IMG/VR virus record: IMGVR_UViG_3300014167_000003
Span: 9,998-73,997 of that record
From: a virus
Taxonomy: Duplodnaviria; Caudoviricetes
Direction: 5' to 3' (one strand)
Length of the DNA: 64,000 nucleotides
This document shows positions 20,099 through 29,213 of the stretch, piece after piece. Within the stretch, counting starts at the first letter, position 1. Every line of letters starts with the position of its first letter. A program made the position numbers and the translations under genes. The notes under the pieces were generated by a model that saw only the letters and a program-made list of their open reading frames with translations, was not told the origin of the DNA and did not search any database.

Positions 20099-21030
20099 TA
20101 TGTCCACCAGAACTGCGGGAACGGCTCCGGCCGCTCGCCCTGGCCGCGCCACATCAGCTTGTCGACGGTCTTCTCATCATGCGCCGCGTTCACCGCCTTG
20201 ATGATCAGCGCGATGAGGAGGAGCGGGTCGCGGCGCTTCTCGTCCGTTCGATGGAGGAGCACCTCGCGCAGCTTATAGAACGGGTCATTGATGGCGACGC
20301 CGGTCGGGTTTTCGAGCGTCTCGACCATGCGCTCGGCCAGCGGCTCGTCGTGGCTCGCCAGCATGTAGTAGGCGAACCCGAGGATCGCCGGGTTGATCAG
20401 CCGGCGCAGGTTCTTGTTGACGCGGGCCACCGCGCGAACCATCTCGGGGTGCGCCTTGTACGCCTCCTCGATCATGGCGTTCTCGACCCGGTTCTCGGCA
20501 TTGCGCGAATTGAGCATGGTGCCGCGCTGGTAATGGATCAGGTAGACGAGCGCGTGCGACGTCGATGCCTTATGGTGCGAGAGCCCGCTCACCGCGAGCA
20601 CGTCGGCGCCGGAGCGGCTCTTCCTGATGGTGTCGATGGTCGAGAACGCGTCGGGCTTGACGCCGAACACGATGATCACCCACACCCGCGCCTTGGAATA
20701 GATCACCGCCCAGAGCCGGTGCTGGCCGTCGAGCACGTCGCCGGTCGAGCCGATCTTGATGGTCTCGCCGTTGACCTTCCACAGCCCGTTCGACATCTGC
20801 CGCGCAATGCGCTTGGCATGCATGTCGGAGAGCGGCCGGTTGTTGTCGTTGCCTTCCAGGATGCGCGCGGCGAGGGTCTCGTCGATGTAGCCCTCCCACT
20901 GCCGCAGCCCGTTGCCGATGTCCTTGGTCGGCAACCCGAAGAAGGCAGCAGCATCGGCAATGGTCGGCGCCACGGGCGCCGCCGGCTCCGGCAGGTCACC
21001 CTTGGCCTTCAGCTTTTCGAGGAGAGACAT
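20098..21030 (-). CDS. ParB-like (DGQHR) domain protein
   Basis: NRPL...IARQM..G.W..NGETI....G.VLDGQHRL.AV....ID...R...D. Confidence 0.82.
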   Translation of the reverse strand: MSLLEKLKAKGDLPEPAAPVAPTIADAAAFFGLPTKDIGNGLRQWEGYIDETLAARILEGNDNNRPLSDMHAKRIARQMSNGLWKVNGETIKIGSTGDVLDGQHRLWAVIYSKARVWVIIVFGVKPDAFSTIDTIRKSRSGADVLAVSGLSHHKASTSHALVYLIHYQRGTMLNSRNAENRVENAMIEEAYKAHPEMVRAVARVNKNLRRLINPAILGFAYYMLASHDEPLAERMVETLENPTGVAINDPFYKLREVLLHRTDEKRRDPLLLIALIIKAVNAAHDEKTVDKLMWRGQGERPEPFPQFWWT

Positions 21031-21527
21031 CGCTGGAACTCCTGTAGCCACGACAATGCGGGAACGAGCTTGCGGTCGATCAGTCCGGTGCGGTCGAGCG
21101 CGACGGCAACGGCGGCAACATCGGACGCGAGCGGAAGGCTGGTCAGCTCCTCCAGGGCGGTCTTCAGGTGGCCCCAGATCGCCGCCTTCTCGTCGAACGT
21201 CTTTTTCCGGTCGTCGGGTGCCGCCGCACGCTTGCGCCTCTTCTTGGGCCTGTGCGCCACATGAGCGAGCGTGCGGTAGGCGCCGTCGACAGAGATCCGG
21301 CCGAGTTCGAGGTTGGCGATGATCGTCGGGTCGCCACGCAGGAGCACCTGGCGCGCCTTGACGACGCTCGACCGGTGCACCTCGAACTGGTCCGCCGCCT
21401 GCTGGATCGACACCGGAGGGTCAGCCGTCTCGTGGTGCCTGCCGTTCTCCGAGATGCCCAGGTTGCACACCCGCGCCGCCGCGAAGGCCCGGCGCGCAAT
21501 TTCTCCGTTGTCGGGTTTATCGAGCAT
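21009..21527 (-). CDS. HTH protein (ParB C-terminal-like)
   Basis: SIQQAADQFEVHRSSVVKARQVL..G...G.ISV..A; GAGG RBS right after repeat array. Confidence 0.7.
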   Translation of the reverse strand: MLDKPDNGEIARRAFAAARVCNLGISENGRHHETADPPVSIQQAADQFEVHRSSVVKARQVLLRGDPTIIANLELGRISVDGAYRTLAHVAHRPKKRRKRAAAPDDRKKTFDEKAAIWGHLKTALEELTSLPLASDVAAVAVALDRTGLIDRKLVPALSWLQEFQRCLSSKS

Positions 21528-21545
21528 TAGATCCACCTCACTGTA

Positions 21546-21903
21546 CGTTGCGATGCGTGGAGGCGAGGAGCGTGGCGATGCGATGCGAGGAGGCGCGAGG
21601 TGTCGAGCAGCTGTGCGTAGCGGTGGCAAATTTCGCAGACGTTGCGTTGCGTTGCGTTGCGGGGCGCCGCGAAGCGATGCGTTGCAGAGCGGGGCGCTGT
21701 GACGCGGAGCGCTGCACTGCGTGGATAAACTTGGTAGACGTTGCGTTGCGGGGCGACGCGAAGCGGTGCGATGCAGAGCGGCGCTCTGTGAGGCGGAGCG
21801 TTGCACTGCGGTGCGAGGTGAAGCGGAGCGGTGCGTCGTAAAATTCTGGTAGACGTTGCGAGGCGCTGCGGTGCGTGAGCGGCGTTGCATTGCGCTGTTG
21901 CGG
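21546..21903 (-). repeat. Array of four 5-nt-periodic CGC-NN units (candidate guide RNAs)
   Basis: - strand: degenerate unit A 21903-21856; unit B 21835-21741 (19 pentamers); unit C 21721-21642 (16); unit D 21622-21548 (15). Each ends CGCAA-CGT; linkers CTACCAGAATTTTA, CTACCAAGTTTAT, CTGCGAAATTT. Confidence 0.95.
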
Positions 21904-22398
21904 TCATCCCTGCGCTCCCTTGATCTTTTCGAGGAGGCTCGTGAGGTCGGGAACCGAGGAAGGCACAGCCCTGACCTTGACCGTTGCCGCCGCGTCCTCA
22001 ATAGCCGCCAGCCGCGTGTTGTTCGTCGAGGCGCGCAACTGGTCGCCCGTGGACAAGGCGTCGAACTGGACAATGTGGCCGAGGCGCTTGCGGCCCCGGC
22101 GCGCGCCGCGCGCGATCTTCTTCAGATCGGCATCGGAGTGCGCCACCAGGTCTTGGTCGTGCATCCGCTTCCAGCCGTAGCTGCGGAGCCGGCGAAAGTG
22201 CACCGGAGGGTCGCCGCGCTCCAACTCACGAAGCGCCGACCGCATCACATGACTGCCAGGGTCGACCGTATGCCCGAGCGTCTGACTGATCCGTTGGTCG
22301 GTGATCTCGTCGTTAACACCAACCAGCAGGACCGCAAGGCGGCGTGCCATTTCGGCGATCTCGGGGCGCTTGATGAACATGGGGCGCGGCGTTGTCAT
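21904..22398 (-). CDS. Accessory protein between RAMP gene and array (winged-helix-like N-terminus, basic helical C-terminus)
   Basis: Starts 3 nt after RAMP stop; MRSALREL...HFRRLRSYGWKR then helix KKIARGARRGRKRL. Confidence 0.75.
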   Translation of the reverse strand: MTTPRPMFIKRPEIAEMARRLAVLLVGVNDEITDQRISQTLGHTVDPGSHVMRSALRELERGDPPVHFRRLRSYGWKRMHDQDLVAHSDADLKKIARGARRGRKRLGHIVQFDALSTGDQLRASTNNTRLAAIEDAAATVKVRAVPSSVPDLTSLLEKIKGAQG

Positions 22399-22401
22399 GG
22401 T

Positions 22402-22959
22402 TTAGTTCCAGGTGAATTTGGTAGGTTTGAACCGACCGTTCAGCCCGCCCTTTTGCGGTTTGAAGCGGCCGATGCCGATGCTGGTGCCCGCCGTCTTCAA
22501 CACGCGTTCAAAGATCTCCTTGGTGACGGTGTCGTCCAAGATTGTGAACGCAGCGTCAGCCTCCCACTGCGGTATCACCGGGAAGGTACGCCAGACCCGC
22601 TTGCCGCTGCCCCTTACGCCATCGACGTTGCAGCTAACACGGACGGAGGCAACGGTGTCCTTCCTGGCGGCCAATACAACATCATGGTCGCAAATGACGT
22701 CGGCTTCGAAGAACTTGGTATAGGTCTTCTTGCCTTTGCCGGGGATTTGGATGCCGAGCTTTTTCGCGGAGGCGTCAAGACATTGCTTGAGGGCCATGGC
22801 CGGAATGTAGATAAAACCGTCCTCGTTGTAGTTGCACTTCTCCCGCCAAGTGCGCTTCTCGTGGTCGTCGTTCGTTTCGCCGCTCAATTTCGGCACTTCA
22901 TGCTGATGGGATTGAGAATACGGGGTAATGCTTTCAAGCCGAACAGTGACGTTACGCAT
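22402..22959 (-). CDS. Stand-alone Cas7-like RAMP (RRM-fold) protein
   Basis: First strand VRLESITPYS, YIPAMALKQCL, thumb-like GVRGSGKRV.R.FP.I..W, Gly-rich loop AG..IGIGRFKPQKGGLNGRF; GGAGG RBS; no other cas genes in window. Confidence 0.78.
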   Translation of the reverse strand: MRNVTVRLESITPYSQSHQHEVPKLSGETNDDHEKRTWREKCNYNEDGFIYIPAMALKQCLDASAKKLGIQIPGKGKKTYTKFFEADVICDHDVVLAARKDTVASVRVSCNVDGVRGSGKRVWRTFPVIPQWEADAAFTILDDTVTKEIFERVLKTAGTSIGIGRFKPQKGGLNGRFKPTKFTWN

Positions 22960-22978
22960 TGTCGTCCTCCATTATGGT

Positions 22979-23030
22979 CGTTGCGATGAGTTGCGGCGCG
23001 CAGCGCAGCTCTGCGATGCGTGGCGGGGCG
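22979..23030 (-). repeat. Fifth CGC-NN unit (10 pentamers) in the RAMP gene leader
   Basis: - strand CGCCC CGCCA CGCAT CGCAG AGCTG CGCTG CGCGC CGCAA CTCAT CGCAA, flanked on both sides by CGACCAT. Confidence 0.92.
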
Positions 23031-23039
23031 GAATGGTCG

Positions 23040-23969
23040 CTACGCTGCCTCCCGCAGGTGAAGTTTGAGCCGCTCGTCGATCTGATCCCGCCGCCACTGC
23101 GCCAGATCGATGAACTCCGCGTCCGCGCGGTCGTCGCCGGGCCCCGGCCAGTGGCCGTTCGACAAGCAGTCCGCGAACGTTCGCAACGCGGCGCGGTTCA
23201 TCTTGGCGCCGCGCGCGATGTCCTCATCGCGAAGCGTCGTCACCCGCACGCAATGCGGCGGCGTCTTCTCGACCCAGATGAGGCTGAATGAGGTGGCCTC
23301 CATGTCGAGCGCCTTGGCGCCTTCGAACACGAGACCGGCTTGCTGGCAGTAGCCGTAGTTGCCGAGAGACGCCTGCAGGTCGCGGTACACCACGCTCGTT
23401 GTCGTCTTGAGATCGCCGAAGTCGCCGCTGTCGCTCGGGATCACATCGGGCCGCGCCTTGAGCCAGATGCCGGTCTCCTGATCCTTCCAGATCATCGAGC
23501 GCTCGATCTGGCCGTTGAGGATGCCGCTCTGCACGAGCGGGTTGGCGCCGAGAGCCAGCGCCATGCCCTTGATGGCGTCGATCATGCTGTTCGTCAGGAC
23601 GGTCTTGCCGGCGCGCTGCTGGGCCCGCTTCCACTCGCGGCAGGCCTTCCTGTTGCCGTGCCAGGCGGCGCCATCGAGCCAGTCCGGCTGCACCGCGAAC
23701 TGGTCGCTGAAGCCGACCTCGCCGCAGATCAAAAAATGTGCCGCCCGGCCGAGGACGAATGCCTCGTTGTCGTCCTCGACGATGCGCTCCGGGTTGATGC
23801 CGCAGCGGGCCCAGGCGTGTGCCGGGCTCTTGTCCCAGAGCACCCGGAGCGGCGACGACGACACCGATGGGCCGACGCAAAGATCACCGTGGTACTGGGC
23901 CAGCGGGATGCCAGCGTACAGGCCGGCAACACCGATGCGTTCGCCGTTCCAGGGAATTGATCGGATCAT
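23040..23969 (-). CDS. RecE/exonuclease VIII-like PD-(D/E)XK nuclease (DUF3799-like)
   Basis: YH....VSSS.L....SPAH, GRAAH, E.S..W.D.ETG...KARPD...DLKTT, Y..Q. Confidence 0.88.
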   Translation of the reverse strand: MIRSIPWNGERIGVAGLYAGIPLAQYHGDLCVGPSVSSSPLRVLWDKSPAHAWARCGINPERIVEDDNEAFVLGRAAHFLICGEVGFSDQFAVQPDWLDGAAWHGNRKACREWKRAQQRAGKTVLTNSMIDAIKGMALALGANPLVQSGILNGQIERSMIWKDQETGIWLKARPDVIPSDSGDFGDLKTTTSVVYRDLQASLGNYGYCQQAGLVFEGAKALDMEATSFSLIWVEKTPPHCVRVTTLRDEDIARGAKMNRAALRTFADCLSNGHWPGPGDDRADAEFIDLAQWRRDQIDERLKLHLREAA

Positions 23970-24082
23970 GGTGGGGCTCGGTGATGCGGGTGTTTTCGAG
24001 GCGCAATTTCTCGCGCCGCGAGGTGAGGCGTTTCAAGCAAAATATTTGCTGTTAGATCCGTTAGATCGAGGCGTTCGGCGCA

Positions 24083-24102
24083 CTAACGGCGCGCCGTGTT
24101 AG
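24083..24102. promoter_or_regulatory. CTAAC-N10-GTTAG dyad with palindromic core in the main divergent control region
   Basis: Core ACGGCGCGCCGT 24086-24097; more TAAC/GTTA half-sites to 24266; perfect TTGACA at 24301. Confidence 0.55.
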
Positions 24103-24432
24103 CCCGTTCGCGGTGTTAACTCGCGATACAGAACGCAGGGAGCCTACGGCTCCTGCTATTCTGGTATTTTGTTATTACTGAGCCGCGCGTAGCACGAGCC
24201 ATGCCAACTCTCCCCGTGTTAGCTAATTTTTTTCTTGCTAACGGAGGCTACGCCGAAATTTCTAACGCGTGTCATCGCGGTGTCACCTTGGGAACACCAA
24301 TTGACAATTTATTTTTTCAGCATTGAGTCGCCTGCGGAAATTGCCTCAAAGGATCGATCACCGATCTTCTAGTACCTTGACGAAGGTTTGAAACCTTTCG
24401 CAGTCATTGCGTCCTCAACCACGGAGGACACC

Positions 24433-24807
24433 ATGGCCAAGGACGCAAACACCAACGAGCCGAGCGACGAGGACGTCAACGCCGCCGTCGACAACATCGA
24501 GAAAAACCTCGACGACCTTCTCAAGGAAAAGATGGCCTACATGTCGCGGGCCAAGCGCATCCGCGACCAGATCGGCGTCGAATACGACCACGCCGTGAAC
24601 CACGGCATCAGCAAGAAGCTCCTCAAGTCCATCATCAAGGAACGCGAACTGCACCGGAAGATCACGGCGCTGTCCGCCGACCTGGAGTTCGACGAGGCGG
24701 CCGAGCGCAAGATGCTGCTCGCGAAGCTCGGCGACTTCGCGGACACGCCGCTCGGCCAGGCGGCGCTGAACAGCGGCGAGCACACGCTCCGTAGCGTGGG
24801 TGCGTGA
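24433..24807 (+). CDS. GapR/DUF2312-like DNA-binding protein
   Basis: GGAGG RBS; helical IRDQI..EY..A...G.SKK.L..II.ER and DTPLG.AA tail. Confidence 0.65.
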   Translation: MAKDANTNEPSDEDVNAAVDNIEKNLDDLLKEKMAYMSRAKRIRDQIGVEYDHAVNHGISKKLLKSIIKERELHRKITALSADLEFDEAAERKMLLAKLGDFADTPLGQAALNSGEHTLRSVGA

Positions 24808-25940
24808 TGAACGGTGAAGCAGACCAAGCATACGGTAGCCTTGTCGAAGGCGTCTTCATCGCCGGCTTCACGCTGGAGCGCGCGTTTCAAAAGCTGGAAT
24901 GGCTGCTCACCGACGCCCGCTGGAAGACGGTCGGCGGCGGGTACGAGGACGTCAACCAGTTCCTCGACACCATCAAGCTCGACCAGTTCAAGATCATCGC
25001 CGAGCAGCGCAAGAAGATCGCGGCGGTGATCAAGAAGCTGGAACCGAAGGCGTCGAACGTCCAGATCGCCAAGGTGGTCGGTGTCAGCGACGAGACGATC
25101 CGTCGCGACACCACAAATGTGGAGGCCGGGAAGAAAGACACCAAGCAAACCAAGGCAACGCCCAAGGCTGAGACCACAAATGTGGCACTTGCTCTCACGG
25201 GCGCCGCCGCAGCGGCGACCGTCATCAGCAAGGCGGCCAAGGACGAGCGCAAGGCGGCGAAGGAGCAGGCGCGCGAGGCCGCCATCGCCGAGAACCTCAA
25301 GGTGCTGCCGGCGGTCAGCGACCGTTTCCGGCTGCTGTGCTCCGATCTCGCCACCGCCGACATCGCGCCCGGCTCCATCGACTGCATCGTCACGGACCCG
25401 CCGTACCCGGAGGAGTTTCTGCCGGTGTTCGCCACGCTCGCGTGGAAGGCGGCGATGTGGCTCAAGCCGGGCGGCTCCATGCTGGTGATGAGCGGGCACA
25501 TGTACCTGCCGCAGGTGCTTGCTCACCTGACCCACGCGCCTGGTCTCAACTATCACTGGACGTTGGCCTACCTGACGCCCGGCGGGCAGGCGGCGCAGAT
25601 GTTCCCGCGCAAGGTGAACACGTTCTGGAAGCCGGTGTTCTGGCTCGTGAAGGGTGAGTACAGCGGCGACTGGGTCGGCGACGTCACGCGGTCGGACGTC
25701 AACGACAACGACAAGCGCTTCCACCACTGGGGCCAGTCCGAGAGCGGCATGGCCGATCTCATCGGCCGCATCTCGATGCCGGGCCAGACCATCCTCGATC
25801 CGTTCTGCGGCGGCGGCACCACGGGCGTGGTCGCTGTCCAGATGGACCGGAAATTTATCGGCATCGACGTCAGCGAGCAGGCCATCGCAACAACCGCGTC
25901 CAGGCTCCACGAGGTGGCAAATGCAGCAATGGTGGCCTGA
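24807..25940 (+). CDS. N6-A/N4-C DNA methyltransferase (beta order) with N-terminal HTH
   Basis: IVTDPPY precedes ILDPFCGGGTTG; SNVQIAKVVGVSDETIRRD HTH. Confidence 0.92.
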   Translation: MNGEADQAYGSLVEGVFIAGFTLERAFQKLEWLLTDARWKTVGGGYEDVNQFLDTIKLDQFKIIAEQRKKIAAVIKKLEPKASNVQIAKVVGVSDETIRRDTTNVEAGKKDTKQTKATPKAETTNVALALTGAAAAATVISKAAKDERKAAKEQAREAAIAENLKVLPAVSDRFRLLCSDLATADIAPGSIDCIVTDPPYPEEFLPVFATLAWKAAMWLKPGGSMLVMSGHMYLPQVLAHLTHAPGLNYHWTLAYLTPGGQAAQMFPRKVNTFWKPVFWLVKGEYSGDWVGDVTRSDVNDNDKRFHHWGQSESGMADLIGRISMPGQTILDPFCGGGTTGVVAVQMDRKFIGIDVSEQAIATTASRLHEVANAAMVA

Positions 25941-26379
25941 TGGCGTTCGTCAGGAGCGGAGCGGATGGCGCGACGAGGCAATAAGCGCGCGGCACCGGCA
26001 CTGGGGCTTTAATTGCCCGGCGGTCGACATCGATTTCCTGGTCGTCGAATACAACCTCGGTGTCCCGGTGGCACTAATTGAGTTCAAGCACCATTTGGCT
26101 GATCCGCCGGACATCAAACACGCATCGTACCGCGCCTACCTCGACCTTGCCGACAACAGGGCGACGCCGCTGCCTTTCCTGATTGTGAGGTATTGGCCTG
26201 ACATCTGGGCTTTCGAAGTCACGCCGATAAACGAAATGGCAAAGCAGCATTTCACGCCCGGCGAGCGCCTCTGCGAACGCGAGTTTGTGATCCGGCTGTA
26301 CAGGCTGCGCAGGCTGGCGGTCACGCAGCACCTCGAAGGAGCGTTGCACACCGAACTGCCTCCCGAGTGGGAGCGTTGA
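25921..26379 (+). CDS. PD-(D/E)XK-like nuclease-fold protein
   Basis: VDIDFLVVE...ALIEFK. Confidence 0.6.
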   Translation: MQQWWPDGVRQERSGWRDEAISARHRHWGFNCPAVDIDFLVVEYNLGVPVALIEFKHHLADPPDIKHASYRAYLDLADNRATPLPFLIVRYWPDIWAFEVTPINEMAKQHFTPGERLCEREFVIRLYRLRRLAVTQHLEGALHTELPPEWER

Positions 26380-26380
26380 C

Positions 26381-26899
26381 ATGGTTGTTCTCGCTCTCGA
26401 CCTCGCGTCGACCACCGGCTTCGCGGTCGGGGCGCCGGGCACGGTGCCGGTCTCCGGCTCGGTCAGGTTTGCCTCCCAGGGCTCGTCCCATGAGGCTGTG
26501 TTCGCCGCCGCGTTGAAGTGGATGTCGGACACCATGGCCAAGTACGACCCATCCACGGTCGTCTGGGAGGCGCCGCTGCCCACCACGTTCAAGCGCGGCC
26601 TCACCAACGTCGGCACCACCACGCTCCTGTACGGCCTGCCGGCGGTCATTGGCGCCTGCTCGTACCTGAAAGGCGTCTACGACATCCGCAAGGCGTCGCC
26701 GCGCGACGTGCGGCTGCACTTCATCGGCTGCTGCCCGCCGCGCAAGAGCGCCAAAACCATGACCATGAAACGCTGCCGCGACCTCGGCTGGCCGGTCGGC
26801 GACGACAACGAAGCAGATGCCCTCGCACTATGGAGCTTCATGTGCACAATTATCGACCCTTCGCAGGCGAAACTGCTGTTGCACCGGGCCCGTCGGTAA
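26381..26899 (+). CDS. RuvC-like Holliday junction resolvase
   Basis: VLALDLA..TG, VVWEAP, DDNEADALA acidic residues. Confidence 0.85.
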   Translation: MVVLALDLASTTGFAVGAPGTVPVSGSVRFASQGSSHEAVFAAALKWMSDTMAKYDPSTVVWEAPLPTTFKRGLTNVGTTTLLYGLPAVIGACSYLKGVYDIRKASPRDVRLHFIGCCPPRKSAKTMTMKRCRDLGWPVGDDNEADALALWSFMCTIIDPSQAKLLLHRARR

Positions 26900-27090: not shown

Positions 27091-28608
27091 ATGGACGCGG
27101 CGCCGGACGTCGGGGATCTGTACGACAACGGCAACACGCCGCTGACCGACCTGGCGGCCGAGGCGCAGCTGCTCGGCCTGATGCTGCAGACGCCGCAGCG
27201 AATGACTGAGGTCATCGACATCCTCACCGAACGCGACTTCTTCGACCCGCTGCACCGCCAGTTCTATCTCGGCCTCCACCGCGCCTACCACGACGGCTGC
27301 GAGATGGTCGACGTCATCAAGATCGACCCGCAGTACGCGTCAAACCTGATGGCACACGCGGAAACGTCGCTCGATCCGGCCGAACTGGCCGACCGCATCC
27401 AGCAGATCGGCGAGCGCCGCGCAATTGGTGGCTCCGACGACGACCGGTTCGGCTCCGAGATCGCCTTCAAGAGCAAGTTCGGCGGCCGGCGCTGGGAGGA
27501 GATCGGCGACGCCACGACGCCCGGGTATCGCTGGGTGGTCGAGGACGTCATCCCGATGGGCGAGGCCACGCTGATGTTCGGCGATAGCGGCTCCGGCAAG
27601 AGCTTCGTCTCCTTCGACATCGCCATGCACATCGTCCGTGGCCTGCCCTACTACGGCCACAACGTCGAGCCGGGCCTCGTGGTCTACGTCGCCGCCGAGG
27701 GCGCCCTCGGGTTCGCCAAGCGCAAGAAGGCCTACGCGCTGCAGCACCAGCTCGCCGACGACGCCGCCTTCCCGTTCTACCTGATCACCCGCCGGCCCGA
27801 CTTCTTCGCCAACGACACCGACACCGCCGCCCTGATCGAGGAGATCCACGCGGTCGCCGCCATGTACAAGGTGCCGCTGATCATGATCGTGCTCGACACC
27901 CTGTCCGCCCTGGCGCCGGGCATGAACGAGAACGCCAGCCAGGACATCTCGGCGGTGCGGCGCCGCATCGTCCGCATCCAGGAAGAGTTCTTCGTCTCCA
28001 TCCTCCTCGTCCACCACAAGCCGAAGAACGGGAGCACACCGCGCGGGCACGGGAGCCTCACCGCAGACTTCGAGACCACCATCGAGCTGGAGGTCCTCAC
28101 CGACAAGAAGACCATCGAGGGCAAGGAGGTCTATCGCGCCACCGCCAGGAAGCAGCGCGACGGCAAGCGCGGCATCCACTGGGAGTTCGTGCTGCCGATC
28201 TTTGAGGTCGGGTGCAATAAGTGGGGAAACGCAGAAACGAGCTGCGTGGCGGTGCCGTACAAGTCCGCCGTCACCGACCTCTCCGGCTTCCACGCCAACG
28301 CCAATGAGCTGCTCTTCCTCCAGGCGCTCTATCGCGCCCTGGACGAGCACGGACAGCCGCCGCCGCACGGCCTGCCGCGCAGCATCACCCGCGCCGTGGA
28401 AATTAAGCATGTGCGCGTCGCGATGCGCGAGCGCGTGATCGACAAGGACGTCGACCCGGCCGTCGCCGACAACCGCTTTCGTGGCGCGTTCAAGCGGGCC
28501 GGCGACAAGCTGCGCGACGGCGCCGTGATCGGCGTGCAGAGCGGCCTCATCTGGCCCACCGGCAAGCCGGTGCGCGGGTTCAATGCAACGGTGCAGGTGG
28601 AGACATGA
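27091..28608 (+). CDS. Replicative helicase: DnaB-like N-terminus plus RecA-type AAA_25 ATPase
   Basis: AE.QLLG.ML...DFFDP.HR; Walker A GDSGSGKS; Walker B IVLDT; HH.KPK...RGHGSL. Confidence 0.88.
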   Translation: MDAAPDVGDLYDNGNTPLTDLAAEAQLLGLMLQTPQRMTEVIDILTERDFFDPLHRQFYLGLHRAYHDGCEMVDVIKIDPQYASNLMAHAETSLDPAELADRIQQIGERRAIGGSDDDRFGSEIAFKSKFGGRRWEEIGDATTPGYRWVVEDVIPMGEATLMFGDSGSGKSFVSFDIAMHIVRGLPYYGHNVEPGLVVYVAAEGALGFAKRKKAYALQHQLADDAAFPFYLITRRPDFFANDTDTAALIEEIHAVAAMYKVPLIMIVLDTLSALAPGMNENASQDISAVRRRIVRIQEEFFVSILLVHHKPKNGSTPRGHGSLTADFETTIELEVLTDKKTIEGKEVYRATARKQRDGKRGIHWEFVLPIFEVGCNKWGNAETSCVAVPYKSAVTDLSGFHANANELLFLQALYRALDEHGQPPPHGLPRSITRAVEIKHVRVAMRERVIDKDVDPAVADNRFRGAFKRAGDKLRDGAVIGVQSGLIWPTGKPVRGFNATVQVET

Positions 28609-28910
28609 GCCTCAAACCGCAGAACATCATCCAGGCCGCCGAGGCGGATCTCGCGCGCAAGCGCCGCAATGCCGAGCGCGCGAAGAACCACGATCACGAG
28701 TATGAGCAATACGCGTTCCACCGCGCCCATGTCCGCCGCGCGCGCGACGCGCGCGAGCTGATCCGCCTGGCTCTCATGGACCCGTGGGTGGCGGACGACA
28801 GCGCCAAGGTCAATACGGTGCTCATTTACAGCGACGCGCGGCTCCTGGTGGCGGCGCTACTCTGTGCCGACCGGCGCGAAGAAGCAGCGCCGCTCGCCGC
28901 CCATCCTTGA
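28605..28910 (+). CDS. Hypothetical protein
   Basis: ATGA coupling to helicase. Confidence 0.55.
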   Translation: MSLKPQNIIQAAEADLARKRRNAERAKNHDHEYEQYAFHRAHVRRARDARELIRLALMDPWVADDSAKVNTVLIYSDARLLVAALLCADRREEAAPLAAHP

Positions 28911-29213
28911 CCCGTCGAGACCGCGCATCACGACACCATGGCAGCGCCAGTAGTGGCCATCCTCGCTCGGCGTTGCCTCGCTGTACGGCACCAGCTCGTC
29001 ATTGTAGGCGTGGAGGATGAGGCCCTTCGGCGTGGCCTCGACGAGCTTCGGGTCGAGGCGCTCGCAGTCCTGCGGCCCGCAGCAGTGCACGCCGGTCTGT
29101 GGTGAGACGTAGCCGCCATGCGTGATCCAGTTCGGCAGGCCGGTGTCCGGGTCGTGCGCTAGTGCGGCGGTGGCGCAGATAATGAGCATTAAAGAACAGG
29201 CGGCCCGGATCAT
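28857..29213 (-). CDS. Secreted Cys-rich protein of lysis region
   Basis: Signal peptide ALA-H; CCGPQDC, YWRCH, RCFFAP. Confidence 0.7.
   Translation of the reverse strand: MIRAACSLMLIICATAALAHDPDTGLPNWITHGGYVSPQTGVHCCGPQDCERLDPKLVEATPKGLILHAYNDELVPYSEATPSEDGHYWRCHGVVMRGLDGSRMGGERRCFFAPVGTE

What the first reader, a model, noticed from the sequence alone, without database searches (positions are those of the whole stretch)
22959..23037. A CGC-NN unit sits in the RAMP gene's own leader
Seen: ten pentamers bracketed by CGACCAT direct repeats end about 10 nt before the GGAGG RBS of the RAMP gene. Unit D likewise ends just before the GAGG RBS of the HTH gene at 21527. Inference: RAMP polymerising on these units could autoregulate translation, or processing at the linkers could release guides and reshape the recombination-operon mRNA. 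No Cas6-like nuclease is evident, so processing is unexplained.
Basis: partly seen in the sequence, partly recalled or inferred. Interest (0 to 1): 0.7.

Follow-up and report, generated by a model that had tools for sequence, protein, structure and literature searches.

The report
Phage VIPR guide unit, CGC type
The CGC-NN five-letter repeat tract in front of the Cas7-like gene is real, and it is best read as a guide-RNA unit of a phage VIPR system (a CRISPR-like RNA-guided DNA silencer first described in 2026), so it is a new example of a known kind, not a new kind.

Summary
Observation confirmed. On the minus strand, ten CGC-NN pentamers (23030..22981) fill the gap between the stop of a RecE-like exonuclease gene and the GGAGG/ATG of a 185-aa gene. 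CGACCAT copies bracket them.

The 185-aa protein is a Cas7-type RAMP by predicted fold. By profile comparison it is a full-length homologue of the SUSP1 Vipr protein (97.9%, E 4e-13). The locus order matches the published VIPR layout: unit, vipr, small accessory gene, four more units.

In 129 loci that carry this protein, period-5 arrays are near-universal, lie on the gene strand, have a fixed xxC triplet and free NN, and often end 10-30 nt before a start codon. Guides from these loci match other phage loci best under the published 1-nt skip rule; controls with shuffled NN order do not.

The leader tract is therefore most likely the counterpart of vrRNA1. No target was found for this window's guides. 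Autoregulation of translation is plausible from the geometry but untested.

VIPR is described in 2026 preprints, which include non-GGY triplets. This scan has noted VIPR-like systems in at least 180 other genomes. Verdict: new member of a known kind.

The parts
23033..23039 (-). 5' copy of the CGACCAT direct repeat, directly after the TAG stop (23042..23040) of the RecE-like exonuclease gene
22981..23030 (-). Leader unit U0: ten CGC-NN pentamers. NN = CC CA AT AG TG TG GC AA AT AA. The last three pentamers (CGCaa CTCat CGCaa) resemble the conserved 3' handle seen in related loci, which leaves about 7 variable NN. Proposed counterpart of vrRNA1.
22974..22980 (-). 3' copy of CGACCAT. It belongs to the recurrent 3' junction CGCAA-CGA(C/T)CA seen after units in related loci.
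22966..22970 (-). GGAGG ribosome-binding site of the vipr-like gene, 10 nt after the last pentamer
22402..22959 (-). vipr-like gene: 185-aa single-domain Cas7-type RAMP with a G-rich loop (IGIGRFKPQKGGLNGRF) and a beta-hairpin carrying DGVRGSGKRV
21904..22398 (-). 164-aa accessory gene (vap-like), starting 3 nt after the vipr stop. The N-terminal half is predicted to be winged-helix-like. Homologues occur only next to the closest Vipr relatives.
21856..21902 (-). Unit A: about ten CGC-NN pentamers with two register breaks, starting 1 nt after the accessory gene's stop
21741..21835 (-). Unit B: 19 pentamers, preceded by the 20-nt linker cgtctaccagaattttacga (21855..21836)
21642..21721 (-). Unit C: 16 pentamers, preceded by the 19-nt linker 21740..21722. 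It is a diverged duplicate of the last 14 pentamers of B: 6 changes in the 28 NN bases and 1 in the 42 triplet bases.
21548..21622 (-). Unit D: 15 pentamers (9 exact CGC), preceded by the 19-nt linker 21641..21623. GAGG (21539..21536) and ATG 21527 follow it.
21009..21527 (-). Next gene in the operon (172 aa, no family match).
23040..23969 (-). Upstream gene of the operon: RecE-like PD-(D/E)XK exonuclease. It is context, not part of the VIPR module.

Best explanation
The tract is a guide-RNA unit of a VIPR system and is the counterpart of vrRNA1 of phage SUSP1.

Proposed mechanism:
1. It is transcribed from the minus strand as part of the exonuclease-vipr operon. No promoter or terminator of its own was detected.
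2. One protomer of the 185-aa Vipr-like RAMP binds each pentamer. The protomer buries the fixed CGC and presents the free NN dinucleotide.
3. The filament recognises double-stranded DNA in which the NN pairs match two of every three bases (1-nt skip).
4. Binding silences a gene of a competing phage or other mobile element.

About seven NN pairs (CC CA AT AG TG TG GC) would carry the specificity. The last three pentamers act as a constant 3' handle.

Shown here:
- The repeat itself.
- The RAMP fold and homology to Vipr.
- The conserved layout of the locus.
- Hypervariable NN between conserved flanks.
- Family-level support for the 1-nt skip rule.

Inferred from the preprints and from homology:
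- Transcription and release of this unit.
- Filament formation on it.
- DNA silencing.

Unknown: the target of this unit.
For: 1. Fold. The AlphaFold model has pLDDT 87. The top PDB matches are all Cas7-type RAMPs: type VII Cas7 8z4j_J with Foldseek E 5e-8, and Csm3 6ae2_B with Z 11.2, followed by Cmr4 and type IV Cas7.

2. Homology to the experimentally studied Vipr. The profile of this family against the profile of the SUSP1 Vipr family gives hhalign probability 97.9%, E 4.4e-13, over 159 columns covering residues 1-171. The pairwise comparison is weaker.

3. Same layout as SUSP1. In KT454805.2 the order is one GGY-NN unit, vipr, a small accessory gene, then three units, all on the gene strand (paper). 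Here the order is one unit, vipr, accessory gene, then four units.

4. The association holds across the family.
- Among 126 loci with enough upstream sequence, 63 have an array ending within 150 nt upstream of the gene (mostly 10-30 nt) and 109 have arrays within 1.5 kb downstream.
- On the gene strand the dominant triplet ends in C in nearly every locus (CGC, CAC, CTC, GGC, GAC); the exceptions are weak arrays such as GTC in L103 and GTT in L122.
- This matches the pyrimidine pocket described for the third base of GGY.

5. Guide-like variability.
- NN positions carry 0.00-0.05 bits of information, against 1.2-2.0 bits for the triplet.
- L008, L009 and L011 have near-identical vipr genes and flanks, but their leader units differ at NN and in length while keeping CGC.

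6. Skip rule. I scanned 141 unique guides from these loci against 1.2 Mb of the same loci with the arrays masked.
- Strong hits (p<1e-8) numbered 6 at skip 1, 1 at skip 0, 0 at skip 2, and 1 at skip 3. The skip-3 hit is probably array-to-array homology.
- 25 runs with shuffled NN order at skip 1 gave a mean of 0.44 and a maximum of 2. None reached p<1e-9, against 3 for the real guides.
- The best hit matches 26 of 28 positions inside an SNF2-helicase gene, with the skipped base at codon position 3.
- The leader unit of L084 hits a terminase gene at 20 of 22, also with the skip at the wobble position.

7. The leader RNA has no special structure (z = +1.0). This suits a protein-coated single strand.

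8. The window's guides have no self-target in the 74-kb contig, as reported for VIPR.
Against: - No target was found for any unit of this window. Searches were exact-pattern scans of IMG/VR and of metagenomes, and scans allowing up to 3 mismatches in five related viral records, five genomes bearing the RAMP and 401 genomes of one order.
- The fixed triplet is CGC, not the canonical GGY.
- No structured 3' tail like that of SUSP1 is evident. The tract runs straight into the RBS.
- No promoter was detected, so the unit would have to be cut out of an mRNA by unknown nucleases.
- With only about 7 variable pentamers it is at the short end of the published 9-16 repeats.
- The accessory gene shows no sequence similarity to SUSP1 vap1.
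- There is no expression or binding data for this locus.
Confidence: 0.75

Rival explanations
1. The tract is a cis-acting operator. The RAMP polymerises on the tract while it is still part of the mRNA and blocks the adjacent RBS, so vipr is autoregulated. This could be the tract's only role or could add to a guide role.
For: - The last pentamer ends 22 nt before the ATG and 10 nt before GGAGG. My inference is that this lies within reach of a 30S footprint.
- In the family, leader arrays end mostly 10-30 nt before the vipr start.
- 110 of 273 arrays are followed within 60 nt by an RBS and a start codon, against 12.5% of random positions.
- No promoter was detected between the upstream gene and the unit, so the unit is probably part of the mRNA.
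Against: - The same placement occurs ahead of many unrelated genes. It may simply reflect tight packing of units into intergenic gaps.
- NN hypervariability between conserved flanks is not needed for an operator but is expected for a guide.
- In SUSP1 the upstream unit ends about 100 nt before the ATG and acts as a guide.
- No regulation data exist.
Confidence: 0.25
2. The tract is a decaying or orphan unit: a remnant of an array that is no longer loaded or used.
For: - It is short, with about 7 variable pentamers.
- Two of the ten triplets are off-consensus (AGC, CTC).
- No target was found.
- Half of the related loci have no array upstream of the gene.
Against: - Eight of ten triplets are exact CGC, the register is unbroken, and the 3' handle and junction are intact.
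- An upstream unit is present in 63 of 126 loci at a constrained distance.
- Ten repeats is within the published 9-16 range.
Confidence: 0.1
3. The tract is a double-stranded DNA site: iterons for the winged-helix accessory protein, a replication origin, or a recombination site of the RecE/RecT module.
For: - The arrays sit inside a recombination operon.
- The neighbouring accessory protein looks weakly winged-helix-like.
Against: - The 5-bp period and the strict strand polarity relative to the RAMP gene hold across 129 loci.
- The arrays track the RAMP gene, not RecE/RecT or the accessory gene. The accessory gene has only 13 homologues.
- The triplet co-varies with a residue in the RAMP G-loop.
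- The RNA role is published for homologous systems.
Confidence: 0.03

Closest known systems
Type II VIPR of Escherichia phage SUSP1 and a Pseudomonas fulva prophage (bioRxiv 10.64898/2026.04.26.720920, 10.64898/2026.04.26.720927 and 10.64898/2026.10.15.759431)
   Same: - Small single-RRM RAMP that is homologous over its full length.
- Pentamer tandem repeats with a fixed triplet ending in a pyrimidine and free NN.
- One unit upstream of vipr, a small accessory gene after it, then an array, all on one strand.
- Phage-borne, with no other cas genes.
- The 1-nt skip rule is supported at family level.
   Different: - The fixed triplet is CGC, not GGY.
- SUSP1 residue D177, which reads G1, aligns with Arg. 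R138, which holds G2, aligns with an invariant Phe.
- There is no long structured tail. Units are separated by 19-20 nt linkers or run into the next RBS.
- No sigma-70-like promoter precedes the unit here, whereas TTGACA...TATACT hexamers lie upstream of the unit in SUSP1 (my reading).
- The accessory protein is unrelated in sequence.
- The target is unknown.
Non-canonical VIPR arrays found by a genomic language model (bioRxiv 10.64898/2026.10.21.760802), and the alternative repeats YNNNG, NNNGG and NNNNG of the discovery paper
   Same: - Period-5 arrays next to Vipr-like folds with fixed triplets other than GGY. GAC/NN and CAC/NN are named there and also occur in this protein family.
- CGC-NN fits YNNNG in the discovery paper's notation.
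   Different: - CGC/NN is not named in the text I could read, and figures are not held.
- Those papers do not, in the parts read, describe units packed against start codons.
Class 1 CRISPR backbone proteins (Cas7 family: Csm3, Cmr4, type VII and type IV Cas7) on crRNA
   Same: - RRM core, G-rich loop and thumb hairpin.
- Best structural matches.
- One protomer per fixed-length RNA segment.
   Different: - The period is 5 nt, not 6.
- There is no CRISPR repeat-spacer array and no Cas5, Cas6, large subunit, Cas1 or Cas2 nearby.
- The guide information is non-contiguous.

Membership tests
VIPR system | Vipr protein: a small (~20 kDa) single-RRM RAMP with a G-rich loop and thumb, homologous to the described Vipr proteins | tested here: met
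   - Model pLDDT 87.
- Top PDB matches are Cas7-type RAMPs.
- hhalign against the SUSP1 Vipr family: 97.9%, E 4.4e-13, residues 1-171.
VIPR system | Tandem pentanucleotide repeats (about 9-16) in which a fixed trinucleotide ending in a pyrimidine alternates with a hypervariable dinucleotide. GGY is canonical; published variants include YNNNG, GAC/NN and CAC/NN. | tested here: met
   - Units of 10, about 10, 19, 16 and 15 pentamers of CGC-NN.
- The period-5 signal is unique in the window.
- NN positions carry 0.00-0.05 bits across the family.
- NN differs between near-identical loci.
- The triplet is CGC, not GGY. This fits the published YNNNG variant.
VIPR system | Minimal locus: units flank vipr, with or without one accessory gene, on the same strand, and there is no CRISPR array or other cas genes | tested here: met
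   - The order is unit, vipr, 164-aa gene, four units.
- Neighbours are RecE-like and RecT genes and proteins of unknown function.
- The order is the same in SUSP1.
VIPR system | Accessory (vap) protein with a DNA-interacting fold | tested here: inconclusive
   - Model pLDDT 70.
- The N-terminal half is helix-helix-helix-strand-strand.
- PDB matches are only weak: ScpB-like and MarR/PadR, E 0.007-0.2.
- No similarity to SUSP1 vap1.
- Only 13 homologues, all beside the closest Vipr relatives.
VIPR system | Invariable, structured 3' tail after the repeat tract | tested here: inconclusive
   - Only a conserved end (CGCaa CGCaa CG...) and 19-20 nt linkers are seen.
- The leader RNA is no more structured than shuffled sequences.
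- No hammerhead or other Rfam match.
VIPR system | NN dinucleotides specify a DNA target with one skipped base per pair, with the skip typically at the codon wobble position | tested here: inconclusive
   - Family level, supported: strong hits are enriched at skip 1 over skips 0, 2 and 3 and over shuffled guides. The best hits place the skip at codon position 3.
- This window, no result: no target was found for its units.
VIPR system | Units are expressed as ~100-nt RNAs that co-purify with Vipr and repress matching targets | not testable with these tools
   This needs small-RNA sequencing, pull-down and reporter assays.
VIPR system | Carried by a phage or provirus (the majority of described systems) | tested here: met
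   - The window lies in a 73,997-base virus record.
- It has a RecE/RecT module.
Class 1 CRISPR-Cas | CRISPR repeat-spacer array and a multi-subunit effector (Cas5, Cas7, large subunit, with or without Cas6) with adaptation genes | tested here: not met
   - No such genes appear among the ten neighbouring ORFs.
- The repeats have a 5-nt period, not about 60-70 nt.

The most novel reading that the evidence does not exclude
Two linked readings are not excluded.

1. Guides built into the operon. In this Vipr clade the guide units sit in the intergenic gaps of an operon and end 10-30 nt before the next start codon. Loading of Vipr on the nascent mRNA would then both make guides and set the translation or stability of vipr and its neighbours. 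That would be a built-in feedback absent from the SUSP1 model.

2. A single specificity residue. One G-loop residue may set the middle base of the fixed triplet. At position 165, Arg goes with G and Gln goes with A. The Arg-to-Gln switch occurs in at least four separate lineages. If true, mutually orthogonal VIPR scaffolds could arise by a single residue swap.
Probability: 0.3. Interest if true: 0.6.

Novelty: new member of a known kind. Interest (0 to 1): 0.4.

Why it matters
VIPR is a very recent addition to RNA-guided systems and has been studied experimentally in only two close relatives. This locus belongs to a large, well-conserved clade (about 1,900 proteins in the search) across many bacterial phyla.

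The clade uses CGC, CAC, CTC, GGC or GAC as the fixed triplet and packs its guides between genes. It therefore offers:
- natural material for asking how the protein reads the fixed triplet;
- a source of possibly orthogonal scaffolds;
- a test case for how guides are released from an mRNA without a dedicated nuclease.

For this particular finding the result is modest. The leader tract is an expected VIPR component, not a new regulatory device.

Tried and rejected
- **Rfam.** Permissive thresholds on 20500-24500 gave no family and no hammerhead.
- **Pfam and PHROGs.** Pfam gave no family for the RAMP, the accessory gene or the 172-aa gene. PHROGs gave only phrog_4652, of unknown function, for the RAMP.
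- **Promoters and terminators.** No sigma-70-like promoter in 20800-26500. No terminator lies beside the leader.
- **GenBank phages.** tblastn with the RAMP found only one distant hit. SUSP1 was not found this way. Homology needed profiles.
- **Coding repeat.** The 126-aa ORF 21527..21907 and the 354-aa ORF 21009..22073 run through the arrays. I rejected a coding reading because the signal has period 5, not 3 or 15, and the same arrays occur with other triplets.
- **Targets of this window's guides.**
  - Exact 1-nt-skip patterns for U0, B, C, D and a degenerate B/C pattern found nothing in IMG/VR.
  - The degenerate B/C pattern and the first ten NN of B found nothing in metagenomes.
  - U0 with up to 3 mismatches found nothing in five related viral records.
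  - D with up to 3 mismatches found nothing in five genomes bearing the RAMP or in 401 genomes of one order.
  - The best scores in the window's own contig and in 128 loci were at chance level for all skip lengths.
  - These searches allow few or no mismatches and the host is unknown, so absence of a target is not shown.
- **Relatives search.** Not available, because the record is viral.
- **VIPR type.** I could not assign one of types I-VII, because the paper's figures and tables are not held.

Full report
**1. The observation**

All genes here lie on the minus strand. The upstream gene ends with TAG at 23042..23040. The following elements come next:
- CGACCAT at 23039..23033.
- Ten pentamers at 23030..22981: CGCcc CGCca CGCat CGCag AGCtg CGCtg CGCgc CGCaa CTCat CGCaa.
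- CGACCAT again at 22980..22974.
- GGAGG at 22970..22966.
- The ATG of a 185-aa gene at 22959.

Downstream, after a 164-aa gene, lie four more units:
- A: 21902..21856, irregular.
- B: 21835..21741, 19 pentamers.
- C: 21721..21642, 16 pentamers.
- D: 21622..21548, 15 pentamers.

The units are joined by 19-20 nt linkers. D ends 20 nt before ATG 21527.

The period-5 signal is unique in the window. GCG on the plus strand reaches 9 of 10 at period 5 and at most 5 of 10 at periods 3, 4, 6 and 7. That 7-mer is itself over-represented in the window, 28 copies against 11 expected.

**2. The protein**

- Pfam has no match. PHROGs gives only phrog_4652, function unknown.
- The protein has about 1,900 well-conserved homologues, all unnamed (alignment A1).
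- An AlphaFold model (pLDDT 87) matches Cas7-type RAMPs and nothing else at the top.
  - Type VII Cas7 8z4j_J: Foldseek E 5e-8.
  - Csm3 6ae2_B: Z 11.2.
  - Cmr4, type IV and type I Cas7 follow.

The 'RAMP' call is right.

**3. Association with the repeat**

- In 80 IMG/VR loci encoding a homologue there are 200 clusters with at least 7 of 10 identical trimers at period 5. Periods 4, 6 and 7 give 1, 0 and 0.
- I added 48 loci from bacterial genomes of many phyla. On the gene strand the dominant fixed triplet is then CGC, CAC, CTC, GGC or GAC in nearly every locus; weak arrays such as GTC in L103 and GTT in L122 are the exceptions.
- Positions 4-5 of the pentamer carry 0.00-0.05 bits.
- Arrays end within 150 nt upstream of the gene in 63 of 126 loci, mostly 10-30 nt before the ATG. 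They lie within 1.5 kb downstream in 109 of 126.

**4. What is known**

[quoted passage not shown] It describes VIPR systems as follows:
- A ~20 kDa RAMP (Vipr) and an accessory gene (vap).
- vrRNAs of 9-16 GGY-NN pentamers with a 3' tail.
- One vrRNA upstream of vipr and an array downstream.
- The NN pairs recognise dsDNA with one skipped base per pair.
- Targets lie in competing phages and satellites.
- There are seven types, and alternative repeats YNNNG, NNNGG and NNNNG.

A companion preprint (10.64898/2026.04.26.720927) shows one protomer per pentamer. G1 is read by H17 and D177. G2 is held by R138 and W178. Y3 sits in a pocket that excludes purines.

A third preprint (10.64898/2026.10.21.760802) reports non-canonical triplets such as GAC/NN and CAC/NN.

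I fetched SUSP1 (KT454805.2). It has the layout unit, vipr (29061..28474), vap1, three units, with GGY-NN on the gene strand.

**5. Membership**

- Pairwise BLASTP between the window's protein and SUSP1 Vipr aligns only the C-terminal 51 residues (E 9e-7).
- Profile against profile (A1 against an alignment of 24 SUSP1-family proteins, A4) gives 97.9% probability, E 4.4e-13, over residues 1-171.
- Protein homology, repeat type, strand, locus order and viral location are therefore all met.
- CGC-NN corresponds to C-NN-CG, which is YNNNG in the paper's notation.
- The accessory gene is unresolved. It has 13 homologues only, a model of pLDDT 70 with a winged-helix-like N-terminal half, weak PDB matches, and no similarity to vap1.
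- A structured tail is not evident.

**6. Does this clade work like VIPR?**

Two tests.

Variability. L008, L009 and L011 have near-identical vipr genes, linkers and an identical upstream unit. Their leader units differ at NN and in length (10, 14 and 10 pentamers) while the CGC columns stay. This is the signature of a guide cassette.

Skip rule. I parsed 275 units from all loci and kept those with 9-20 pentamers left after trimming the two 3' pentamers, which are mostly xxxAA. This left 161 guides, 141 of them unique. I scanned them against 1.2 Mb of the same loci with all arrays masked, at skips 0-3.
- Guides with a hit at p<1e-8: 1 at skip 0, 6 at skip 1, 0 at skip 2, 1 at skip 3. The skip-3 hit is probably an unmasked homologous array.
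- 25 runs with shuffled NN order at skip 1 gave a mean of 0.44 and a maximum of 2. None reached p<1e-9, against 3 for the real guides.
- Best hit: L039:2224-2303 matches L042:5133-5174 at 26 of 28 positions. The site is inside an SNF2-family helicase gene, antisense, with the skipped base at codon position 3.
- A second L039 guide hits what appears to be the corresponding gene in L046 at 19 of 22.
- The leader unit of the Paracoccus prophage L084 hits the terminase large-subunit gene of a Devosia prophage (L086) at 20 of 22, again with the skip at the wobble position. Only the first of these hits is individually significant after correction.

Together they support the published rule for this clade, and they show that a leader unit can look like a guide.

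**7. This window's guides**

- No self-match and no match among the loci beyond chance.
- Exact 1-nt-skip patterns found nothing in IMG/VR or in metagenomes.
- Searches allowing 3 mismatches found nothing in five related viral records, five genomes bearing the RAMP or 401 genomes of one order.

The targets remain unknown. The host is unknown too. The exonuclease's best GenBank phage match is a Brucella phage at 36% identity, which hints at an alphaproteobacterial host.

**8.

Polymerisation on the units and release of guides agree with the preprints. Autoregulation is not tested.
- The tract ends 22 nt before the ATG, and no promoter-like site lies between the exonuclease gene and the tract. 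The unit is therefore probably part of the mRNA, and a filament on it could hinder the ribosome.
- However, 110 of 273 arrays in the family are followed within 60 nt by an RBS and a start codon, against 12.5% of random positions. This happens ahead of many different genes. The placement is a general packing habit, not something special to vipr.
- How the units are cut out is unexplained here, and also in the parts of the preprints that I read. No ribozyme was found.

**9. Extra observation**

The G-loop residue at position 165 of the window's protein aligns with SUSP1 D177. It follows the middle base of the triplet.
- CGC loci: Arg in 60 of 61.
- GGC loci: Arg in 8 of 8.
- CAC loci: Gln in 7 of 8. 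These fall in at least four separate lineages whose CGC neighbours keep Arg.
- GAC loci: Phe, Val or Ser in 5 of 6 (tree).

SUSP1 R138 aligns with an invariant Phe. This suggests direct reading of the triplet by the G-loop and an easily changed specificity. I have not seen this in the texts read.

**10. Verdict**

The tract is best explained as the vrRNA1-type guide unit of a CGC-NN VIPR system embedded in a phage recombination operon. It is a new member of a kind described in 2026 preprints. Notes of this scan already record VIPR-like systems in at least 180 other genomes, and other notes cover this same locus.

Noticed in passing
window 22465-22467 (codon of residue 165 of the 185-aa protein); loci L050, L051, L053, L054, L057, L074, L096 and others: The G-loop residue at position 165 (G-x-G-[R/Q/F]-F-R-P) follows the middle base of the fixed triplet. 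CGC and GGC loci have Arg in 68 of 69. CAC loci have Gln in 7 of 8, in at least four separate lineages. GAC loci have Phe, Val or Ser in 5 of 6. It aligns with SUSP1 D177, a residue that reads the first G.
   Followed up: partly
L039:2224-2303 and L039:2867-2931 against L042:5133-5174 and L046:6954-6986: [quoted passage not shown] The skipped base is at codon position 3. This looks like inter-phage targeting.
   Followed up: partly
L084:5900-5964 against L086:10876-10908: The leader unit of a Paracoccus litorisediminis prophage matches the terminase large-subunit gene of a Devosia prophage at 20 of 22 positions, with the skip at the wobble position. It is not individually significant after correction.
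   Followed up: partly
window 21741-21810 and 21652-21721: The last 14 pentamers of unit B and the first 14 of unit C are diverged duplicates. They differ at 6 of 28 NN bases and 1 of 42 triplet bases. This would fit two guides against variants of one target.
   Followed up: partly
window 21527-21907 and 21009-22073, minus strand: Long ORFs (126 aa and 354 aa) run through the pentamer arrays. They are probably artefacts of a stop-poor, C-rich repeat. The gene after the array most likely starts at ATG 21527 (172 aa, no family match).
   Followed up: partly
L018:9641-9926 and L052:9054-9138: These two loci have CGC-NN arrays around the vipr gene but GGC-NN arrays about 4 kb downstream. This may indicate a second system, or captured guides with another scaffold.
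   Followed up: no
OR003939.1 (Phage DSL-LC04) 22444-22857: This is the only GenBank phage hit to the window's RAMP (30% identity over 82% of the query). It is annotated as a helix-turn-helix transcriptional regulator, so it is probably a mis-annotated Vipr-like gene.
   Followed up: no
whole window: CGACCAT occurs 28 times on both strands, against 11 expected from shuffles. No reason was found.
   Followed up: no
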